Positions 15,875-41,979 of a stretch of 64,000 nucleotides of DNA are shown here, piece after piece. The first letter of the stretch is position 1. Every line of letters starts with the position of its first letter. The notes below the pieces were generated by a model that searched no databases, had not been told where the DNA came from, and saw nothing but the letters and a program-made list of their open reading frames with translations. This stretch comes from Escherichia phage vB_Eco_mar004NP2. The position numbers and the translations under genes were made by a program. The stretch lies in sequence record OR896837.1, one strand, 5' to 3'.

Positions 15875-16063
15875 ATTAGTAACCATTATATACTTCTTTA
15901 ATAGAGTGAACTTTCAAGTAAGGGTGATTAATCCCAAACTCCGCCATTACTTCTTTCTCATCTTTTCCATAATGAGCAAGTAAGGATTTTGAGGTATTCT
16001 TACCTAAACGTTTGTCACTTACTACTAATCGAAATACTTTCATTTCGAAATCCTCTATTAAAG

Positions 16064-16225: not shown

Positions 16226-16600
16226 AATATTATTTCTTTAACCACAGCAAAGATAAGCCCAGCATACTAAAACCGCTAACTAATCCGATACATTTTTCTT
16301 CTATAGTAAAAGTATCTAGATTAAATGCTGTTATAGCTATTGGTATACACCATAATGCCATAAAAACTTGAGCTATCTTGTGTTTCATTTTGCTTTCCTT
16401 CTCTTCACTTTATAAAATATATTATACAGATAATAAAGCAGAATAGCAAATGAATTTTTAATAAATTTACTTATTGTGTAGGCCACCTGGAGGCTACCAA
16501 CCCCACGGCTGACAAAGAAGTTTGCGAGACCTCTCTTAAATGCCAGAATAGACCCGGCGGGTCTATCGGAACCTACATAATAAGTAAACTTTATAGTGTC

Positions 16601-16720
16601 ATTCTAGACAGGACTCGAACCTATTATCACTTGTGCGGACTTACGAGAACCATTCTTTCACTCGAATCGAACGAGCTTCTGCCCTCGCCAAGCTGGTTTC
16701 CCCATCAACCACGCTAGAAT
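16601..16720 (-). ncRNA. tRNA-like structured RNA, about 120 nt
   Basis: Terminal 7-bp pairing ATTCTAG/CTAGAAT, D-like stem GGTT/AACC, T-arm ATAGG-TTCGAGT-CCTGT, but about 70 nt of extra internal sequence and no canonical anticodon arm. Confidence 0.3.
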
Positions 16721-16842
16721 GTTTGATTGTTTTCAGTGCAAGAGTCCGAGTCTTGGACACGACCGCTTCGCAAGTACATAGGCAGCTTATCATGAGTCAG
16801 CACTTCCGAATTGCTAGCTCCGTGTTCTGCACTGAAATTTTG

Positions 16843-17216: not shown

Positions 17217-17291
17217 TGGTACACCCTGTTCGTATCGAACGAACCTCTCAAGCTCTTCAGGCAAGCGCTAATCCATCTCAGCTAAAGGTGC
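17217..17291 (-). tRNA. tRNA-Phe-like (GAA) candidate, possibly defective
   Basis: 75 nt; acceptor GCACCTT/AGGGTGT with 2 G-U pairs; T-arm GTTCG-TTCGATA-CGAAC; loop CTGAAGA; anticodon stem has two T-T mismatches. Confidence 0.4.
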
Positions 17292-17445: not shown

Positions 17446-17523
17446 TGGTGGCTCCCCGAGGATTCGAACCTACGTACCTTCCGGTTATGAGCCGGGTGCT
17501 CATACCATATGAGCTTGAGAACC
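17446..17523 (-). tRNA. tRNA with CAU anticodon (Met/Ile2), second copy
   Basis: Acceptor GGTTCTC/GGGAGCC + A + CCA; D-arm GCTCA/TGAGC; loop CTCATAA; weak T-stem. Confidence 0.5.
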
Positions 17524-18254: not shown

Positions 18255-19203
18255 TTACTTATTACGCATATCCATAATCATCTGGCCATCGTAACCAGTG
18301 CCAACCACAGTCTGCGGTACACCACCTTGATACTTCTGAGCACGAATCATTTCAACTTCTAGTTGCTTCCAGCGAATCATCTCAGGAGTAATGGTACGTT
18401 GCAGCGCGGCGTTAGCTTCAGCTTCTTTCTTAGCTGCGTACAGTTTAGCATCTGCGTCGCGTTCGTTAGCAATAGCTTGGTTATTACGAGCTTCACGGTC
18501 TGCTTCTGCTTGTTTAACTTTCTGCTGAGCTTCTTGTTCAACGCGAGCCAGTTCAGCTTTTGCAGCATTAACTTGCTCTTCACGAACTTTGGTATTCTGT
18601 ACCTGTTCCATGATTACTGGTGGCAAAGTAATATCCTGAAGAAACATCTGCTTAACTGTGTAGCCATATGGGCGTGCATACTCTTCAACTTCCTGTTGAA
18701 TTGCAGTTTGCAATTGAGCCTGAATTTTAGCATCAAATAAATCTTGTGCTTTAGGTACAGACTTACCAAACTCACGAATAGTAGACAGTAATTTTTCAGT
18801 TACATATTTGTCTAATGCTTGATCCTGAGTACCTGCATTAATACGGTTAATCGGTGCCTTAGAACCATCAAACTGCAACATAACAGTCAGGTCAACAGTG
18901 GATTTAAACTTATCCTGGCTAGGAACCTGAAGTTTATCTAATTTTTACAGCAATATCTTTTGTACTAAAAGTATCGAAAGATGCAAATGGGTTTACAGGA
19001 TGGAAACCAGGTAATACTGGGTTAGGATCTACTTTACCAAGAAATGTTTGGGTTTTAACCGTACCATCAGAAACAATAGTATATGAATTAAAAGCTAGGA
19101 TTAAACCTGCTAAACCAACTACAGCACCAATCCCCCAACGTTTAATAGTACGAATTACTTTCTGCTCAGAAGTTAGTTCTTTCATATTTTTAGTATTAAA
19201 CAT
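18255..19203 (-). pseudogene. SPFH/band-7 membrane protein, reading frame interrupted (two ORFs, 18934..19203 and 18255..18881)
   Basis: Upstream ORF gives TM anchor plus first SPFH segment; downstream ORF gives the rest plus coiled coil; frames differ by +1 across an A5 run. Confidence 0.5.
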
Positions 19204-19237
19204 ATATTTCCTTTGTTTTAGTTACAGTTAATAAAAT

Positions 19238-19312
19238 TGGCCGAGGTGACAGGATTCGAACCTGCATAAAGGAATTTAGAAGACTCCTGCCTATCCCTTA
19301 GACTACACCCCG
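19238..19312 (-). tRNA. tRNA-Arg (anticodon UCU)
   Basis: Acceptor CGGGGTG/CACCTCG + G + CCA; anticodon arm GGAGT-CTTCTAA-ATTCC; T-arm GCAGG-TTCGAAT-CCTGT. Confidence 0.6.
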
Positions 19313-19814
19313 TTTAAGTATTTTTAAGAACTCTCGTAAAAACTCTTAAAAATACAGACGATACCGGGAGAGTCATAAGTCTCACTCATTAAGTATTTCA
19401 AGACAAAATACAGTAACGTCTATTATTTTCCAGTTTAAGTCAGGGTGACTTAGTGGTTATGTCCTGCGGTATATTGAGGACTCGGTTAGGCTTGGGGTCA
19501 TGACTTCCCACCTTTTGCTGCTACTCAACAGGAGTTATCGCGAATTACCTGTGCTATTGTGCACCATTAGTGACATCTCTCATGTCAGCATTTCCCACTT
19601 TGTGGATAGCTTGAAAAACTACTCCGATATGGAGAAAGAACTTCACTACCCTAGAATACCTTCTAAAGTTCTTCTTTAGCCTAGGCATAGTTAAATCGTA
19701 ATAAAACTATTCAGCAGACTGGTTGGTTAGTCTGGAACCAACTACCGCGTGGTTTAGGCAGTGCGCAACTAACCTCGGAAGCTTTTACGTTAAAAGCATC
19801 AGTTATCCAGTTCT

Positions 19815-19890
19815 TACCGACCGTAGGATTCGAACCTACATCTTCCACCAGTTACGGCTTGATAATACCAATTATACTAGGACGGCAGTG
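19815..19890 (-). ncRNA. tRNA-like element, possible tRNA pseudogene
   Basis: Perfect T-arm GTAGG-TTCGAAT-CCTAC and partial acceptor pairing; no anticodon stem could be folded; no CCA. Confidence 0.3.
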
Positions 19891-20161
19891 TTACTACATA
19901 AGTGATTTCCACACCCCACTATTTATAAATTAGAGAAGAGTTTAGGGGAGAGGTTTCAGACGCCTCATTTTACACGTTCTAGCCACTAACCGGGATTGCC
20001 GCCCCCTGTGTACTAGTTTTACAACTAACCCACCGACTCTATTCAACGAATCTTAGTGCTTGACGCATCTTACATTAAGACAAGTTCAGCGTAATCGGCT
20101 CGCTGTTCTCTAATTTATGAATATATTATACAGAATTTATAAGCATTTAGCAAATAAATTT

Positions 20162-20605
20162 TTAATTAAATTCGCCAGCAATCTGAGCAGCAGTACCACC
20201 ATCATAACGCCCAGGAAATTCTTCCTTAATCGCTTTCATTAGCATACCTTTTGTAATTCCAGGGTTTAGCTTAACTAATTCTGCAAAGTATTTACGAATC
20301 TCAGTATCAGATAACTGAGGAGGCAGATACTCCTGCAACCACTTATTTAGAATGTATTCATACTGAGCGGACTGCAAGCTATAACTATCAAGATCTTGAC
20401 CATGAAGTTTAGCTTTCATCTGGTTAATGCTTTTTAGTTGAGCTTTGAGATAAGACACAAATTGTTCAGAAGTGATGAAATCTTTATTAATACGCTGAAG
20501 ATCCCCGATTATGGTCTGATAGCTTTTAGCGACTTCTTTATCAGAACCATTAAACTTAGAATCCTGCAAAGCTCTACGCAAAACATCTAAAATATTCTCT
20601 TCCAT
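20162..20605 (-). CDS. GatB/YqeY-domain protein
   Basis: C-terminal GMLMKAIKEEFPGRYDGGTAAQI matches the YqeY/GatB C-terminal signature. Confidence 0.55.
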   Translation of the reverse strand: MEENILDVLRRALQDSKFNGSDKEVAKSYQTIIGDLQRINKDFITSEQFVSYLKAQLKSINQMKAKLHGQDLDSYSLQSAQYEYILNKWLQEYLPPQLSDTEIRKYFAELVKLNPGITKGMLMKAIKEEFPGRYDGGTAAQIAGEFN

Positions 20606-38199: not shown

Positions 38200-40989
38200 G
38201 TGTTTTCAATCCTACAAGGTCATGCAGGATTTCATCGCGATTTAGCCACAGGCAATTGGCGAGAAGTTAAAGCAGAAGATTATCTTTTTGCTAAAAGATT
38301 TTCCTCAAAGCATCCTGAAGGTAAACCAGCTTCAATGCCCTTCAAGTTTGATGTAATTGACGAAGTTGATCCTCAAACCCTAGTAGAAATGCTTCCTCTT
38401 ATGAGACGTTTAACGTCTGACCCTCATATCGTTGCGGTACGAGGTCGATGTCTTGCACCTAAAAATAATGTGCGGCGTAAGAATGGCAACTTTAATGTAT
38501 CTAACCCAAGTCATATAATTGCAATGGATGTGGATGGTATTGTAGATACAGGTGGTTGTAACAAGTTTGATCTTGTTGGCATGGCTCGACATATTATTAG
38601 AATGTTAAATAGTATTAGTGAGGATATGTTTCCTCTTGATGCAGGGTTTATCGCTCATGCATCGTCTTCGGCTGGGCTAAAACCAGGTATCCGAATGCAC
38701 TTAATACTAGAATCTAATGTTAAAGTAACTCAGGGTCAAATCAAATTCTTATTTACATCTATCAACGAAAGTAGTAGACAAAAGTATGGCTTTGATATTG
38801 CCGACTTAGCTTATTACTCTTCCGTACAGCTCCATTATTTTGCAGATCCGTTATTTACCGATGGTATAGTAGATCCGTTTAAAGAGGAGGGTGCTTCACG
38901 TCTGGTATTTGTTAAGGGTTCTAAAGTAAATTTACCCAATAATCTGGTTGACTATGAAACAACTAGAGGTGAGTTTAAAGAAGAGTTCTACTCTTTACTA
39001 GACCAAATTAAGGGTAAAAAAGCTGCCTCTGATAAAGTAGAAGAAACCATCAGCGAACTAGAAGAAGCTGAGGATGGAGTGTATCTACGTATTATTCCTA
39101 AACTCTATCACAGGGCTTTAGAGGATGGTGTTGATTTTGCATGGCTAGAAAAAGAAATCCGTCCAGCCTTATCAGAATATATTGCAACTAAAGATAATAG
39201 TCGTAATATTCAAGACTACTTTAATAATGGTCGTAAACAGGCTCTAAAAGCATTTGTTAATAATTCTAAACGTTATATACCGGATGTTTTAAAAGGTATT
39301 CCACTCAAAAAGCTAGAAACTAACTCTTTAGAGACTGATAACTTCTTGAAATTAAATACTGTGCCACCAGAAGGTTATATGACTTTTGTAAAAGCGAGTC
39401 TAGGTACAGGTAAAACTACAGCGGTTGTGCGTTGGTTAGATTCAGGAGTTATTAAAGGTAATTTCTTAGCAATTACCAATACTCGAGCACTGGTATCTTC
39501 CAATGCTAAGAAATTTAGTGCAGGACAATATGATAAGTCTGTAGATATGCTTAATTTTAAGCGTGGTGCTATTGACCGTATGTCCACAACTATTCACTCT
39601 TTGCATAAGTTCAAGAGTTTTATTGGTCAAATTGATGCAATCTTTATCGATGAATGTGATGCAGTAATGAACGACCTATTATTCGCCCCGGTTGTTAAAC
39701 AACGTCGTGAATGTATTCAGGTTCTTCGGGATATTCTTGCAACTGCAAAAATCATTATATTATCAGATGGTGATATTAGTGCAGAAACAATTGAAGCATA
39801 TGGTTCTTTGATCGAGTTTGATAAACCGGTTGCATTTTATAATCATCACCGTAAAATGCTGTCAAAAGCTCATGCTTATGAGTTTCCTGATGAATCCAGT
39901 ATTTGGGTTGCACTTCAGACTTCTCTAGAGATGGGTGAGAAATCTATTCTGGTATCTGATTGTGGCCCTGATGAGCTGAATGAGAAGGGTATGGCATTAC
40001 GTCGTAATACGGGTGCGTTAGTTAAGGAAATCCACTCAAATTCTACGTCTGATGTGGATATTAGACGTATTCTGGATTACACAACTAATGAGCTGATTGA
40101 TCAACAAATTGATTGCTTATTATGTAGTCCATCCGTAACGAGTGGAGTTGACTTCAACTATTTTGATAACGTATTCGTTATTACTAGAACCAGTAACCAA
40201 GCGCCAAACATGCGTTTTCAAGCAATCAGGCGCGACCGTGGTGCTCAGAATATCTATTATTTTATTGATAAATCTACGAGTGGATTCTCTGCAGGTTCTG
40301 AACAATATAATATTGATGAGGGCTGGCTGGAGTTAGCACAGCAATTATATGCACGTCGTAGAGAGCTGGAATCTAGAAATTATACTAGTACTTTACGTTA
40401 TTACTTGCTTGATCAGGGTGCAACTATTGATATTTTCAGCGAAAGCTGGGGAACTATTGAAGGTGCAGGGAAAGAATATATGGAAGAGCGAATCAAAGCT
40501 ATTCTACATTCAACTCCTGATTATTGTGCTCCACGTCATGCGGATGCGTATGAAGCTAAACTACTTCTTGTTCGCTATTATCATCTTGAGTCTATTAAAG
40601 ATGTAACAGTTGAGCATGTTGAACAATATATCAAGGATAAACCTAATGATCGAGCGGCATTCTTCCATAAAATGCACGAGATGTTTTGGGAAGATATTAA
40701 GAAGTGTTCAAACGTCACTATCAAACCATTCATAGAAGCTCTGAAAGGTAAGAAGAAGGACTTCTTCCTTAAAACAGGTCAGAGTGCTAACCCAAAATAT
40801 GCTAGAATGTATCTTGGTATGATGGGTATTGGTAAGGATATGAACACTGAAAATATTGTAGACTGGTACAGAACCTATTGTAAAATCGAGTGTATGCCAA
40901 TTCCTTATAAGTTTATGACTGATGAGGAGAAACATATGCATGATGAAGCAATGGCAGAGCTAGGTGCTAGAAATGACAGTGAAGAATAA
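38200..40989 (+). CDS. replication initiation / origin-binding-type protein with P-loop NTPase domain
   Basis: Walker A SLGTGKTT and Walker B IFIDECD in a 929-aa protein at the head of the replication module; start set at GTG 38200 after ACAGGAG RBS. Confidence 0.5.
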   Translation: MFSILQGHAGFHRDLATGNWREVKAEDYLFAKRFSSKHPEGKPASMPFKFDVIDEVDPQTLVEMLPLMRRLTSDPHIVAVRGRCLAPKNNVRRKNGNFNVSNPSHIIAMDVDGIVDTGGCNKFDLVGMARHIIRMLNSISEDMFPLDAGFIAHASSSAGLKPGIRMHLILESNVKVTQGQIKFLFTSINESSRQKYGFDIADLAYYSSVQLHYFADPLFTDGIVDPFKEEGASRLVFVKGSKVNLPNNLVDYETTRGEFKEEFYSLLDQIKGKKAASDKVEETISELEEAEDGVYLRIIPKLYHRALEDGVDFAWLEKEIRPALSEYIATKDNSRNIQDYFNNGRKQALKAFVNNSKRYIPDVLKGIPLKKLETNSLETDNFLKLNTVPPEGYMTFVKASLGTGKTTAVVRWLDSGVIKGNFLAITNTRALVSSNAKKFSAGQYDKSVDMLNFKRGAIDRMSTTIHSLHKFKSFIGQIDAIFIDECDAVMNDLLFAPVVKQRRECIQVLRDILATAKIIILSDGDISAETIEAYGSLIEFDKPVAFYNHHRKMLSKAHAYEFPDESSIWVALQTSLEMGEKSILVSDCGPDELNEKGMALRRNTGALVKEIHSNSTSDVDIRRILDYTTNELIDQQIDCLLCSPSVTSGVDFNYFDNVFVITRTSNQAPNMRFQAIRRDRGAQNIYYFIDKSTSGFSAGSEQYNIDEGWLELAQQLYARRRELESRNYTSTLRYYLLDQGATIDIFSESWGTIEGAGKEYMEERIKAILHSTPDYCAPRHADAYEAKLLLVRYYHLESIKDVTVEHVEQYIKDKPNDRAAFFHKMHEMFWEDIKKCSNVTIKPFIEALKGKKKDFFLKTGQSANPKYARMYLGMMGIGKDMNTENIVDWYRTYCKIECMPIPYKFMTDEEKHMHDEAMAELGARNDSEE

Positions 40990-41206
40990 AAAATGGGAAA
41001 CAAGGAAGTTCCCAGTAAAAGAGCGTAAAGTTCCTGTTTACGATACTTCGGAAAAGCTATGTAGGGTGGTTCCTGCTAGATTAGCTGGCATCCCTAACAT
41101 ATCCGAGTGGTTACTTAAACAACGGAAAACAAACGTGTCTCTTCGCATCGGCTTTGAATTAGATAAAGTCTATGCTGAACTTGCTTCTTTGCTCAAGGAA
41201 TCGTAA
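40973..41206 (+). CDS. hypothetical small protein
   Basis: ORF overlapping end of preceding gene. Confidence 0.35.
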   Translation: MTVKNKKWETRKFPVKERKVPVYDTSEKLCRVVPARLAGIPNISEWLLKQRKTNVSLRIGFELDKVYAELASLLKES

Positions 41207-41214
41207 AAATTTAT

Positions 41215-41243
41215 TTGCATAGTGCAAAAAATTTCTGTATAAT
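41215..41243 (+). promoter_or_regulatory. sigma70-like promoter
   Basis: TTGCAT, 17 bp, TATAAT, then ATAAATTTGAGAGAGGAG leader. Confidence 0.55.
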
Positions 41244-41274
41244 AGATTCATAAATTTGAGAGAGGAGTTTAAAT

Positions 41275-41979
41275 ATGGCTGGTTCTCGTAGAAAGAAACA
41301 TATCCATGAAATCCCGGATGAAGTCTTTAAAAAGGTTATAGAGCATCTGGAGAACGGTGGTACTAAGAAAGCAGCATGTGAAATGCTCGGCGTATCATCT
41401 AATCCAACTATGGAAAGAATGATTGAAGAATGGCAAGACCGCCAGATTCAAGTTGCCGAAATGAAGAAAAAGAAACGTGGCACACTCATTGAAGGCATTG
41501 AGTTAGCTAACGTTATTGAGCAGTATTTATCTGGTGATTCTTTTGAAGAAATTGCCGATCGTAATTACCGCTCTGTAGCAATGGTTAAATCTGTTCTGGA
41601 ACGATATGGTGCTCTACTTCGTTTGAACGATATTGTAGATCCATTGAATCCTCCAATTATTCCTGATGATGCTGTAGCAGAAGAATTTGCAGTTGGTGAG
41701 CTTGTTTGGGTTCCTGGATACCAGTGTATCGGTGAAATCAAAAAAGCAATGGATAATCCTGTTGGTTGTTACCGTGTATGGCTTCTATCGGAAGGCAAAC
41801 AACAGAACGTCCATTATATGAATTACGAGTTGGCCTCTGTTAAGCATCTAGAAAAGTTAGGGGTTGACGTAAAATCTCTAGGGTACAAGTGGACTCGTGA
41901 AGAAATTATTACGTTGATTAACGAAGCTGTTAAGGCCGCCCTGAAGCTTGATAAAGAAAAAGGAAAACGCCGTGAGTAA
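41275..41979 (+). CDS. putative HTH DNA-binding protein
   Basis: N-terminal GGTKKAACEMLGVSSNPTMERMIEEW helix-turn-helix-like segment. Confidence 0.45.
   Translation: MAGSRRKKHIHEIPDEVFKKVIEHLENGGTKKAACEMLGVSSNPTMERMIEEWQDRQIQVAEMKKKKRGTLIEGIELANVIEQYLSGDSFEEIADRNYRSVAMVKSVLERYGALLRLNDIVDPLNPPIIPDDAVAEEFAVGELVWVPGYQCIGEIKKAMDNPVGCYRVWLLSEGKQQNVHYMNYELASVKHLEKLGVDVKSLGYKWTREEIITLINEAVKAALKLDKEKGKRRE

What the first reader, a model, noticed from the sequence alone, without database searches (positions are those of the whole stretch)
19320..20160. About 0.8 kb with no credible ORF but several hairpins and a tRNA-like T-arm
Between tRNA-Arg and the GatB/YqeY gene there is no ORF over 60 aa on the coding strand. 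The region contains a perfect T-arm (19815..19890) lacking an anticodon stem and inverted repeats such as CAGACT...AGTCTG (about 19712..19731). It may hold divergent tRNAs I could not fold by hand or small stable RNAs.
Basis: seen in the sequence. Interest (0 to 1): 0.45.

Follow-up and report, generated by a model that had tools for sequence, protein, structure and literature searches.

The report
Large structured phage RNA (T5 RNAX)
The gap is not empty: it is the gene for a roughly 0.8-kb folded non-coding RNA of T5-like phages (marked "RNAX, function unknown" in the T5 record) with a tRNA look-alike in its middle; it is conserved in hundreds of phages and has never been characterised.

Summary
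Window 19313-20161 has no conserved ORF. Its only tRNA-type feature is an anticodon-less tRNA-like element at 19815-19886 (-), which Rfam scores at 35.5 bits and ARAGORN does not call.

The window is a T5-like phage (Tequintavirus). In the T5 record AY543070 the same interval is annotated rnaX, "stable RNA with unknown functions". It starts at a promoter and abuts tRNA-Arg.

I collected 45 distinct versions, 644-1332 nt long, from four Demerecviridae genera. All share a near-consensus sigma-70 promoter and a modular set of helices with compensatory changes:
- 3' domain: 93.9% of cells paired, 13 of 34 pairs changed on both sides.
- tRNA-like plus the next hairpin: 9 of 22 pairs.
- 5' closing helix, hairpin and pseudoknot: 5 of 25 pairs.
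With partners slid by 1-3 columns, only 34-53% of cells pair.

No Rfam family other than tRNA matches, and I found no paper on it.

Best reading: one large structured ncRNA, co-transcribed with tRNA-Arg and probably released by RNase P. In context it resembles GOLLD and ROOL, but it is not detectably a member of either. Its function is unknown.

The parts
20125..20153 (-). Sigma-70 promoter TTGCTA-17 nt-TATAAT. It overlaps the 3' end of the YqeY-like CDS. The equivalent T5 feature is 'promoter P 16-17'.
   Evidence: The consensus scan gives 10 of 12 matches. The promoter is retained with few changes in nearly all relatives examined. The T5 annotation lists it.
19313..20118 (-). RNAX-type non-coding RNA, about 805 nt. 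The 5' end is inferred to lie about 7 nt after the -10 box. The 3' end is inferred to be the RNase P site at the first base of tRNA-Arg.
   Evidence: It is orthologous to T5 misc_RNA rnaX 40848-41566. No conserved ORF is present. No Rfam family other than tRNA matches.
19925..20118 (-). 5' domain (194 nt), closed by helix P1 (20118-20106 pairing with 19937-19925). T5 itself has lost the interior of this domain and keeps only a short hairpin.
   Evidence: The 164-nt 'insertion' relative to T5 is ancestral, because it is present in four genera. On alignment A5, 96.9% of cells pair against 34-45% with slid partners. The MFE structure contains P1 and P2, with z = -1.92.
20087..20105 (-). Hairpin P2 (CAGCG-AGCCGAUUA-CGCUG). 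Its loop (20099-20093) is complementary to 20038-20032, a proposed pseudoknot.
   Evidence: DU_PP_V carries compensatory changes in both: G-C to A-U in P2 and C-G to A-U in the pseudoknot. RNAalifold on the 5'-domain alignment picks the loop-to-downstream pairing.
20032..20038 (-). 3' partner (AGUCGGU) of the proposed P2-loop pseudoknot.
   Evidence: helix 3: 98.3% of cells paired, with one pair changed on both sides.
19950..19966 (-). Hairpin P5 (GAGG-CGUCUGAAA-CCUC). Other lineages carry an alternative version (CGGGA-GCUG-UCCCG, or CUCAGU-GCUG-ACUGAG).
   Evidence: This rests on sequence comparison. GAGG/CCUC becomes GUGG/CCAC in L050, CGGGA/UCCCG becomes CCGGA/UCCGG in EK80, and DU_PP_V has a different stem with the same loop. 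It was read by eye and not formally counted.
19887..19920 (-). Conserved segment AGUGGGGUGU...AACACU just before the tRNA-like element. It includes a small hairpin (GUG/CAC here, GUC/GAC in Stitch) and a conserved U at position -1.
19815..19886 (-). tRNA-like module. Acceptor, D and T arms are conserved. There is no functional anticodon arm and no encoded CCA. Pair 1:72 is G.U, and pair 5:68 is a U.U mismatch.
   Evidence: Rfam tRNA scores 35.5 bits with the anticodon arm skipped, and ARAGORN is negative. Covariation is shown. The anticodon arm varies in length and shape. In STG2, L021 and Kp150049 the whole module is replaced by a 45-nt non-tRNA stem-loop.
19781..19797 (-). Hairpin H1 (GCUUUU-AACGU-AAAAGC), downstream of the conserved trailer AAGAACUGGAUAACUG.
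   Evidence: helix 4: two of six pairs change on both sides (C-G/U-A/A-U at one pair, C-G/G-C at another).
19722..19742 (-). Hairpin GUUGGUU-CCAGACU-AACCAAC.
   Evidence: It is conserved in bastian, and SB13 has GUUGAUU/AAUCAAC, a compensatory change. The AGUCUG arm is absent in those two phages.
19496..19507 (-). Nearly invariant motif G(A/G)AGUCAUGACC. It contains the palindrome GUCAUGAC and is the 5' strand of a long-range helix with 19438-19450.
   Evidence: RNAalifold and the single-sequence MFE both predict the helix. DU_PP_V keeps it with a rearranged partner. The helix does not vary, so there is no covariation for or against it.
19438..19450 (-). AGUCACCCUGACU, the 3' strand of the long-range helix, with a 3-nt bulge.
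19318..19442 (-). 3' terminal domain. Helix Z pairs 19431-19424 with 19355-19348. Helix Pa pairs 19421-19413 with 19364-19356 and encloses two hairpins. The terminal hairpin spans 19355-19318.
   Evidence: Model R1 was built without window-type or DU_PP_V sequences, yet it finds them at 68.4 and 49.2 bits. On the resulting alignment 93.9% of cells pair, and 13 of 34 pairs change on both sides against 7.9 +/- 1.4 in shuffles and 1-4 with slid partners. The MFE z-score is -2.36.
19318..19355 (-). A 17-bp A/U-rich terminal hairpin with conserved G.U pairs. It is the most conserved piece of the RNA. Its 5' strand can pair with 19431-19424 (helix Z) instead.
   Evidence: It is 92-100% identical even in Pectobacterium phage DU_PP_V. 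It occurs once in the window. The Z pairing covaries, A-U to G-C (columns 16/113). In Epseptimavirus the full hairpin has a C.A mismatch.
19238..19312 (-). tRNA-Arg(UCU) with encoded CCA, 5 nt after the terminal hairpin. Its 5' processing would create the 3' end of RNAX.
   Evidence: In T5 the rnaX feature ends exactly where tRNA-Arg begins.

Best explanation
Window ~20118-19313 (minus strand) is the gene for a large, modular, highly structured non-coding RNA of T5-like phages. It is the ortholog of T5 rnaX ('RNAX, stable RNA with unknown functions').

Shown here:
- It begins a few bases after a near-consensus sigma-70 promoter.
- It has no conserved ORF.
- It consists of a 5' domain closed by a 13-bp helix that sequesters the 5' end, an embedded anticodon-less tRNA-like module, and a roughly 500-nt 3' domain ending in a very conserved hairpin.
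- Many of its helices keep pairing through compensatory changes across four phage genera.

Inferred:
- It is co-transcribed with the downstream tRNA-Arg(UCU).
- RNase P cleavage at the tRNA-Arg 5' end releases the RNA with a hairpin-protected 3' end, so it accumulates as a stable RNA.
- The tRNA-like module is a peripheral element that can be swapped out. It may also be an RNase P or tRNA-enzyme recognition site.

Most likely mode of action (speculative): a trans-acting RNA scaffold or sponge made early in infection. It would work like the GOLLD and ROOL RNAs of phage tRNA islands, by binding or enclosing a partner or by self-assembling, rather than by base-pairing to a target or coding for anything.
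For: - Identity: the region is 99.8% identical to Tequintavirus genomes. T5 annotates the same interval as misc_RNA rnaX 40848-41566, flanked by promoter P16-17 and tRNA-Arg. Alignment to T5 is 91-98% over shared segments.
- Promoter: TTGCTA-17-TATAAT at 20153-20125, conserved in nearly all relatives examined. No terminator-like site lies on the minus strand.
- Non-coding: no ORF is conserved across clades, and indels are not multiples of three.
- 3' domain structure: the model was built from other genera, and held-out window-type sequences align to it. 93.9% of cells pair, 13 of 34 pairs change on both sides (0 of 500 shuffles reach this), and slid controls give 1-4 such pairs.
- tRNA-like plus H1: 87.5% of cells pair and 9 of 22 pairs are compensatory.
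- P1/P2/pseudoknot: 96.9% of cells pair against 34-45% with slid partners, with 5 compensatory pairs.
- Strand: conserved G.U pairs place the structure on the minus-strand RNA.
- Further hairpins show two or three alternative stem sequences with the same loop.
- Context analogy: GOLLD and ROOL are phage or prophage RNAs near tRNA islands, and tRNAs sometimes sit in the GOLLD linker (PMC12286853; PMC5737381).
Against: - No expression or end-mapping data are available for this phage. The experimental basis of the T5 label 'stable RNA' could not be read.
- The MFE z-score of the whole RNA is only -1.41, and the domains score -1.9 to -2.4.
- The sequences fall into only four or five lineages, so compensatory counts are not independent events. 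All five in P1/P2/pseudoknot come from DU_PP_V.
- Alignment A4 was fitted to the model, which favours the structure.
- Parts are dispensable. T5 and several isolates lack the 5' domain. Three Epseptimavirus members lack the tRNA-like module. Homing-endonuclease ORFs sit inside the locus in others.
- In Sugarlandvirus and S124-type phages a CDS, not tRNA-Arg, follows the hairpin. RNase P cannot be the universal 3'-end maker, and a leader role for downstream genes is possible.
- No sequence or covariance-model similarity to GOLLD or ROOL was found.
Confidence: 0.72

Rival explanations
1. The transcript is a precursor for several separate stable RNAs rather than one long RNA. RNase P and 3' processing would excise the tRNA-like element. 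That would leave a 5'-domain RNA of about 240 nt, a 72-nt tRNA-like RNA and a 3'-domain RNA of about 500 nt, each acting on its own.
For: - The 5' and 3' domains are each closed by their own helices, and I found no helix bridging them.
- The tRNA-like element keeps acceptor and T stems with covariation, and has a conserved U at -1 before G1. From general knowledge, such a U favours bacterial RNase P.
- The domains are lost independently in nature.
- T5 annotates other 'tRNA-like stable RNAs', RNA1, RNA2 and RNA3, in the same tRNA region.
Against: - The T5 record annotates one 719-nt RNA across the tRNA-like element.
- The acceptor stem is defective: pair 1:72 is G.U or G.A, pair 5:68 is mismatched in 12 of 16 variants, and no CCA is encoded.
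- Some members replace the module with a plain stem-loop that RNase P would not be expected to cut, while keeping the flanks.
Confidence: 0.2
2. It is a long structured 5' leader (UTR) that acts in cis. It would control or stabilise expression of what follows: tRNA-Arg and the SPFH gene here, or a CDS in other genera. One possible route is the alternative pairing at its 3' end.
For: - No terminator lies between the promoter and the downstream genes.
- In Sugarlandvirus and S124-type phages an RBS and ATG follow the terminal hairpin within 10-20 nt.
- The 5' strand of the terminal hairpin has two mutually exclusive, conserved partners: helix Z or the full hairpin.
Against: - 0.65-1.3 kb of conserved multi-domain structure is far more than known bacterial leaders need.
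- The downstream gene differs between genera while the RNA is kept.
- T5 annotates it as a stable RNA.
Confidence: 0.12
3. It is evolutionary debris with no function of its own: decayed tRNA genes and homing-endonuclease scars in the plastic tRNA region, transcribed only as a spacer ahead of tRNA-Arg.
For: - The region is mosaic, with many module swaps, indels and HNH endonuclease insertions.
- One recognisable tRNA relic is present.
- The whole-RNA folding z-score is weak.
Against: - Debris would not keep helices through compensatory changes across genera.
- Debris would not keep near-invariant unpaired motifs and a 92-100% conserved hairpin in phages whose flanking DNA has diverged beyond blastn detection.
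- No other tRNA remnant is detectable at E<=10.
Confidence: 0.04
4. It encodes one or more small proteins. Some genome records annotate 34-60 aa 'hypothetical proteins' here.
For: Baret, SB13, TrudiGerster and others annotate short CDSs on either strand. The window has ORFs of 59-60 aa on the plus strand.
Against: - No ORF is kept in length, frame or position across clades.
- The only cross-clade peptide similarity lies over the tRNA-like segment or other nucleotide-conserved blocks.
- The annotated ORFs differ from record to record.
Confidence: 0.02
5. It is a cis-acting replication element: a promoter-driven structured primer RNA or R-loop origin, in the manner of ColE1 RNA II or the T4 origins.
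For: The only support is a strong conserved promoter followed by a long non-coding structured transcript.
Against: - There is no inflection of cumulative GC skew across the region.
- The transcript runs straight into a tRNA gene.
- The most conserved features, the G.U-containing hairpin and the tRNA-like fold, point to RNA-level recognition rather than DNA unwinding.
Confidence: 0.03

Closest known systems
Phage T5 rnaX ('RNAX, stable RNA with unknown functions'; misc_RNA 40848-41566 in AY543070 / NC_005859)
   Same: Same locus and strand, between the YqeY-like gene with promoter P16-17 and tRNA-Arg. Identity is 91-98% over the shared segments. It has the same tRNA-like module, 3' domain and terminal hairpin.
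   Different: The window RNA carries the 164-nt interior of the 5' domain (20106-19943), which T5 has lost. It lacks an 87-nt T5-specific insertion that is flanked by a direct repeat of the AGUCACCUUGAC-UAAACUGGAA motif. Nothing about structure or function is recorded for RNAX.
GOLLD RNA (giant ornate RNA of phages and prophages)
   Same: It is a phage-encoded, non-coding, multi-domain structured RNA of more than 600 nt. It is located in or next to a tRNA island and has 5' and 3' domains separated by a linker that can hold a tRNA (PMC12286853). The 5' part is less conserved than the 3' part, as in RNAX.
   Different: No match to the Rfam GOLLD model at E<=10 in the window or at E<=5 in four relatives. 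Host range differs: RNAX is in Enterobacterales T5-like virulent phages. The embedded element here is not a functional tRNA. Multimeric cage formation is untested.
ROOL RNA (rumen-originating ornate large RNA)
   Same: It has a similar size class (mean 581 nt), a phage or prophage and tRNA-proximal context, high abundance without known protein partners, and unknown function (PMC5737381; PMC12286853).
   Different: No covariance-model match. The helices, junctions and motifs appear unrelated.
tRNA (Rfam RF00005) and tRNA-like processing modules (for example mascRNA at the MALAT1 3' end, or the tmRNA tRNA-like domain; recalled from general knowledge)
   Same: The 72-nt module has acceptor, D and T arms with a canonical T-loop (GGUUCGAAUCC) and scores above the tRNA gathering threshold. 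Like mascRNA-type elements, it sits inside a long non-coding transcript and could recruit RNase P.
   Different: There is no 5-bp anticodon stem or 7-nt loop. The arm is hypervariable. No CCA is encoded. The acceptor stem carries conserved mismatches. Cleavage at this site is not shown.
Other T5 'stable RNAs' of the tRNA region (RNAI, RNAIII, RNAIV, RNA1, RNA2, RNA2H, RNA3)
   Same: They lie in the same genome region and strand and have the same annotation class. Some are called tRNA-like. Homologs of RNAIV and RNA2 are also in this window.
   Different: They are 73-172 nt long, whereas RNAX is four to ten times longer. They share no sequence modules with RNAX other than T-arm-like similarity.

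Membership tests
T5 RNAX (rnaX) orthologs | Position between the YqeY-like gene and tRNA-Arg, on the same strand | tested here: met
T5 RNAX (rnaX) orthologs | Nucleotide homology to T5 40848-41566 | tested here: met
   Identity is 91.5% over 516 nt and 98.6% over 138 nt. Differences are one 164-nt and one 87-nt indel.
T5 RNAX (rnaX) orthologs | Own promoter (T5 'P 16-17') directly upstream | tested here: met
   TTGCTA-17-TATAAT at 20153-20125, identical to T5.
T5 RNAX (rnaX) orthologs | Accumulates as a stable RNA in infected cells | not testable with these tools
   This rests only on the wording of the T5 GenBank annotation. No transcript data could be found.
tRNA (RF00005) | Covariance-model score at or above the gathering threshold | tested here: met
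   35.5 bits against 29 for 19815-19886(-).
tRNA (RF00005) | Anticodon arm with a 5-bp stem and a 7-nt loop carrying an anticodon | tested here: not met
   The Rfam alignment skips 18 nt there. The MFE gives a 3-bp stem with the 6-nt loop GUAACU. ARAGORN makes no call. The arm differs in length and shape among relatives.
tRNA (RF00005) | Regular 7-bp acceptor stem and a 3' CCA (encoded in the neighbouring phage tRNA-Arg) | tested here: not met
   Pair 1:72 is G.U or G.A, pair 5:68 is mismatched in 12 of 16 variants, and the trailer is AAGAAC, not CCA.
tRNA (RF00005) | Aminoacylation and use in translation | not testable with these tools
   No data. It is unlikely, given the missing anticodon arm.
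GOLLD RNA | Match to the family covariance model (conserved 3' domain) | tested here: not met
   No GOLLD hit at E<=10 in window 19100-20400, or at E<=5 in four divergent relatives.
GOLLD RNA | Large (over 600 nt) multi-domain structure supported by covariation | tested here: met
   Lengths are 644-1332 nt. Covariation is shown.
GOLLD RNA | Phage or prophage location next to tRNA genes, with a tRNA sometimes in the linker | tested here: met
   It lies in the T5-like phage tRNA region, is followed by tRNA-Arg, and has a tRNA-like element between its two domains. The comparison comes from PMC12286853.
GOLLD RNA | Homo-oligomeric nanocage assembly | not testable with these tools
   This needs in vitro transcription plus cryo-EM or SEC-MALS.
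ROOL RNA | Match to the family covariance model | tested here: not met
   No ROOL hit.
Protein-coding gene | An ORF conserved in frame and extent among relatives | tested here: not met
   Module swaps and indels that are not multiples of three are seen.

The most novel reading that the evidence does not exclude
RNAX is a third, independent class of giant 'ornate' phage RNAs alongside GOLLD and ROOL. It would be a 0.65-1.3 kb RNA made early by T5-like phages from their tRNA island that self-assembles or sequesters a host or phage tRNA-binding factor, for example through its tRNA-like elbow and the invariant palindromic GUCAUGAC motif. That would give this enigmatic kind of RNA a genetically tractable E. 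coli model, with natural domain-deletion variants already in hand: T5 lacks the 5' domain, and STG2-type phages lack the tRNA-like module.
Probability: 0.3. Interest if true: 0.8.

Novelty: new member of a known kind. Interest (0 to 1): 0.6.

Why it matters
T5 is a classic model phage, and its relatives are among the most frequently isolated coliphages and Salmonella phages. Yet nearly every genome record leaves this 0.65-1.3 kb conserved RNA gene blank or fills it with spurious 'hypothetical proteins' and 'tRNA-OTHER/Sec/Ser/Pro' calls.

Very large structured bacterial and phage RNAs are rare. According to PMC5737381, only rRNA, group II introns and GOLLD exceed ROOL in size and complexity. 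The function of the phage tRNA-island RNAs GOLLD and ROOL is an open question, despite recent cryo-EM structures (PMC12286853).

An analogous RNA in an E. coli phage would make that question approachable by ordinary phage genetics, because natural variants lacking individual domains already exist. Recognising the locus would also correct the annotation of several hundred genomes.

Tried and rejected
- Rfam. Scans of the whole window at gathering thresholds, of 19100-20400 at E<=10, and of four divergent relatives at E<=5 found only tRNA hits plus chance-level miRNA, sRNA and snoRNA matches.
- ARAGORN. No tRNA or tmRNA is called in the region.
- More distant loci. The YqeY-like protein retrieved only close relatives. 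tblastn with the SPFH protein led to T4-like phages without this locus. The single metagenome scan, using the terminal-hairpin pattern, gave only 5 T5-like contigs.
- Bacterial genomes. My pattern for genome contigs was too loose. The 80 loci listed were chance matches, and model R1 found nothing in them. That scan was wasted.
- Literature. I found no paper on RNAX or on large RNAs of T5-like phages. An apparent 'RNAX' hit in PMC6563131 was not in the main text.
- Plain MAFFT alignment A1 of the 3' domain across all clades. The two strands of helix Pa came out in different registers, so RNAalifold recovered only the terminal hairpin. I replaced this with a model built on two clades and tested on the others.
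- Coding hypothesis. Rejected.
- Repeats of RNAX modules elsewhere in the window. None were found beyond T-arm similarity.
- Link to the upstream YqeY-like gene. YqeY is a possible tRNA-binding domain, but the Pfam hit is below the cutoff, and the gene is absent upstream of RNAX in Sugarlandvirus and DU_PP_V. I kept this only as a weak idea.
- Whole-RNA MFE z-score. It is uninformative at -1.41.
Full report
**What the window is.** The region is 99.8% identical to Escherichia phage vB_Eco_mar004NP2 and other Tequintavirus (T5-like, Demerecviridae) genomes. Genes here run on the minus strand. tRNA-Arg(TCT) is at 19238-19312. A 147-aa CDS at 20162-20605 has a sub-threshold Pfam YqeY match of 25.4 bits against a cutoff of 27.

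**Check of the observation.** Between those two genes the longest minus-strand ORFs are 45, 44 and 34 aa, and the longest plus-strand ORFs are 60 and 59 aa. Rfam finds a tRNA match at 19815-19886(-) scoring 35.5 bits against a gathering score of 29, but only by skipping 18 nt where the anticodon arm should be. ARAGORN does not call it. The CAGACT/AGTCTG inverted repeat exists at 19715-19720 and 19729-19734. G+C is 0.41-0.44 in the gap against 0.32-0.37 beside it.

**What is already recorded.** The curated T5 record AY543070 annotates the orthologous interval as misc_RNA rnaX, 'RNAX, stable RNA with unknown functions', at 40848-41566. It is preceded by 'promoter P 16-17' and ends exactly where tRNA-Arg starts.
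- Pairwise alignment shows 91-98% identity with two large differences. The window has 164 nt (20106-19943) that T5 lacks. T5 has an 87-nt insertion flanked by a direct repeat that the window lacks.
- Almost all other genome records leave the interval blank. Others fill it with differing short 'hypothetical proteins' and a 'tRNA-OTHER', 'tRNA-Sec', 'tRNA-Ser' or 'tRNA-Pro' call.
- I found no paper on RNAX in the library.

**Family.** blastn finds the region in 526 phage records. Identity is 99% in close relatives and falls to about 74%, with mosaic coverage, in more distant ones.
- I extracted the promoter-to-hairpin interval from isolate genomes, IMG/VR loci and five metagenome contigs. This gave 45 distinct versions; excluding two that contain endonuclease ORFs, they are 644-1332 nt long.
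- They come from Tequintavirus, Epseptimavirus, Sugarlandvirus and, in another subfamily, Hongcheonvirus (Pectobacterium phage DU_PP_V).
- Nearly all have a near-consensus promoter, TTGC(T/C)-N-TATAAT, a few bases before the conserved start CAUAAAUUA.

**Architecture.** Alignments show conserved blocks separated by modules that can be swapped.
- The 164 nt 'extra' in the window are ancestral. The same 5' domain occurs in all four genera, whereas T5 and a few isolates keep only its closing hairpin. In two phages an HNH endonuclease ORF sits there instead.
- After the 5' domain comes a conserved segment ending AACACU, then the tRNA-like module, then the conserved trailer AAGA(A/G)..GAUAACU and hairpin H1.
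- A variable middle follows, with motifs such as CUAAACCACG and AGUGGGAAA.
- Next is the nearly invariant G(A/G)AGUCAUGACC, which pairs with AGUCACCYUGACU.
- A three-way junction and an extremely conserved terminal hairpin end the RNA.
- That hairpin is 92-100% identical even in DU_PP_V, where most of the RNA is beyond blastn detection. It occurs once in the window.

**Is it RNA structure?** Three formal tests were run.
1. *3' terminal domain (window 19318-19442).* A plain MAFFT alignment of all clades put the strands of one helix out of register. I therefore aligned only Epseptimavirus and Sugarlandvirus sequences, wrote the structure, and built model R1.
   - The held-out window-type and DU_PP_V sequences matched at 68.4 and 49.2 bits.
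   - On the resulting alignment 93.9% of cells form standard pairs.
   - 13 of 34 pairs show changes on both sides. Shuffles give 7.9 +/- 1.4, and 0 of 500 reach 13.
   - With partners slid by 1-3 columns, 36-53% of cells pair and 1-4 pairs change on both sides.
   - Helix Pa has 9 of 11 compensatory pairs.
2. *tRNA-like module plus H1.* 87.5% of cells pair, and 9 of 22 pairs change on both sides (shuffles 4.1 +/- 1.1; slid controls 1-4).
3. *P1, P2 and a proposed pseudoknot in the 5' domain.* This was counted on mini-constructs with the variable middle cut out. 96.9% of cells pair against 34-45% with slid partners. Five pairs change on both sides, but all five come from DU_PP_V.

Several other hairpins show two or three different stems under the same loop. 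Examples are UAGAA/UUCUA, UAGGC/GCCUA and UAGUC/GACUA under GGUA, and CGGGA/UCCCG, CCGGA/UCCGG and CUCAGU/ACUGAG under GCUG. These were read by eye.

Conserved G.U pairs would be C.A mismatches on the other strand, so the folded molecule is the minus-strand RNA. Thermodynamic z-scores are modest: -1.41 for the whole RNA, -1.92 for the 5' domain and -2.36 for the 3' domain. No ORF is conserved across clades.

**The tRNA-like module.**
- Acceptor, D and T arms are kept. T-stem pair U-A changes to C-G in 6 of 16 variants.
- Pair 1:72 is G.U or G.A, and pair 5:68 is mismatched in 12 of 16 variants. It is repaired from either side in a few variants. No CCA is encoded.
- The 'anticodon arm' is a 3-bp stem with a 6-nt loop in the window, a 5-bp stem with a 9-nt loop in bastian, a 6-bp stem with a 3-nt loop in DU_PP_V, and a long two-part arm in Sugarlandvirus.
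- In STG2, L021 and Klebsiella phage 150049 the whole module is replaced by a 45-nt non-tRNA stem-loop between the same flanks.

It is therefore a maintained tRNA-shaped module that does not decode and is not indispensable to the family.

**The 3' end.** The 5' strand of the terminal hairpin (GUAU(U/C)UUU) can pair either with the hairpin's 3' strand or with the upstream GGAA(A/G)AUA (helix Z). The upstream pairing covaries, A-U to G-C. In Epseptimavirus the full hairpin has a C.A mismatch at that position.

In the window the hairpin is 5 nt from tRNA-Arg. T5's annotation ends RNAX at that junction. This fits release by RNase P, but that step is an inference. In Sugarlandvirus and S124-type phages an RBS and ATG follow the hairpin instead. 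So another end-forming route, or a leader role, must exist there.

**How it most likely works.**
- *Shown:* a promoter-driven, non-coding, multi-domain RNA with conserved structure. Its 5' end lies in a 13-bp helix, and its 3' end lies next to a strong hairpin.
- *Inferred:* it is co-transcribed with tRNA-Arg, cut free by tRNA processing, and accumulates.
- *Speculative:* it acts in trans as a scaffold, sponge or self-assembling particle.

The closest parallel in kind is GOLLD and ROOL. These are large ornate RNAs of phages and prophages next to tRNA islands, with tRNAs sometimes in the GOLLD linker and with unknown function (PMC12286853; PMC5737381). RNAX is not a member of either, because no covariance-model match is found. 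Rival readings are scored separately: several separate small RNAs, a cis-acting leader, debris, small proteins, and an origin primer.

**Novelty and verdict.** The existence of the gene is on record for T5, so the window's copy is a new member of an annotated but uncharacterised RNA. What is new here is the family-level picture: its range across four genera, its modular anatomy, the ancestral 5' domain missing from T5, covariation support, the competing 3' pairings, and the analogy to GOLLD and ROOL.

Limits:
- The sequences fall into few independent lineages.
- One alignment was fitted to the model.
- No expression data are available.
- The function is unknown.

Noticed in passing
window 18934-18945 (minus-strand gene 18255-19203): The SPFH/band-7 'lipoprotein' gene (T5.080 homolog, 315 aa in T5) is split into 89-aa and 208-aa ORFs. 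The cause is one extra A in a homopolymer run (A5 here, A4 in T5 and Baret). This could be a real frameshift or a sequencing error. Phage bastian also has this gene annotated in two pieces.
   Followed up: partly
window 17449-17523 (-) and 17220-17291 (-): Rfam calls two further tRNAs (40.3 and 40.0 bits) that ARAGORN missed. In Baret the corresponding genes are annotated tRNA-Met and tRNA-Leu. In T5 the gene next to tRNA-Ser(GCU) is tRNA-Ile2(CAU).
   Followed up: no
window 16475-16578 and 16597-16721 (minus strand): These are homologs (95-96% identity) of two other T5 'stable RNAs with unknown functions', RNAIV and the 'tRNA-like' RNA2. They coincide with a local G+C rise to 0.46-0.48. Like RNAX, they are unannotated in most relatives.
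   Followed up: partly
L059 717-1199 (Citrobacter phage CitS1); L019 (IMG/VR 2974662754); L025 1667-2176 (Salmonella phage S124): Free-standing ORFs are inserted in the RNAX locus. An HNH_3 endonuclease replaces the 5' domain in CitS1, and a similar ORF does so in L019. A 169-aa ORF with no Pfam hit sits between the terminal hairpin and tRNA-Arg in S124, CitS1 and STG2.
   Followed up: partly
window 19496-19507 and 19438-19450: The nearly invariant motif G(A/G)AGUCAUGACC contains an 8-nt perfect palindrome, GUCAUGAC. Its predicted intramolecular partner is a near-copy with a 3-nt bulge. The motif could therefore mediate RNA-RNA dimerisation instead.
   Followed up: no
L003 (T5) 15973-16059, i.e. 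T5 40972-41058: T5's own RNAX carries an 87-nt insertion made of a long imperfect hairpin. It is flanked by a duplication of the AGUCACCUUGAC(U/A)UAAACUGGAA motif and is absent from the window and all other relatives examined.
   Followed up: no
window 20162-20605 and L029, L030 upstream regions: The gene upstream of RNAX differs between genera. It is a YqeY-like protein in Tequintavirus and Epseptimavirus, an endolysin in Sugarlandvirus, and a DUF4326 protein in DU_PP_V. The promoter and the start of the RNA stay the same throughout.
   Followed up: partly
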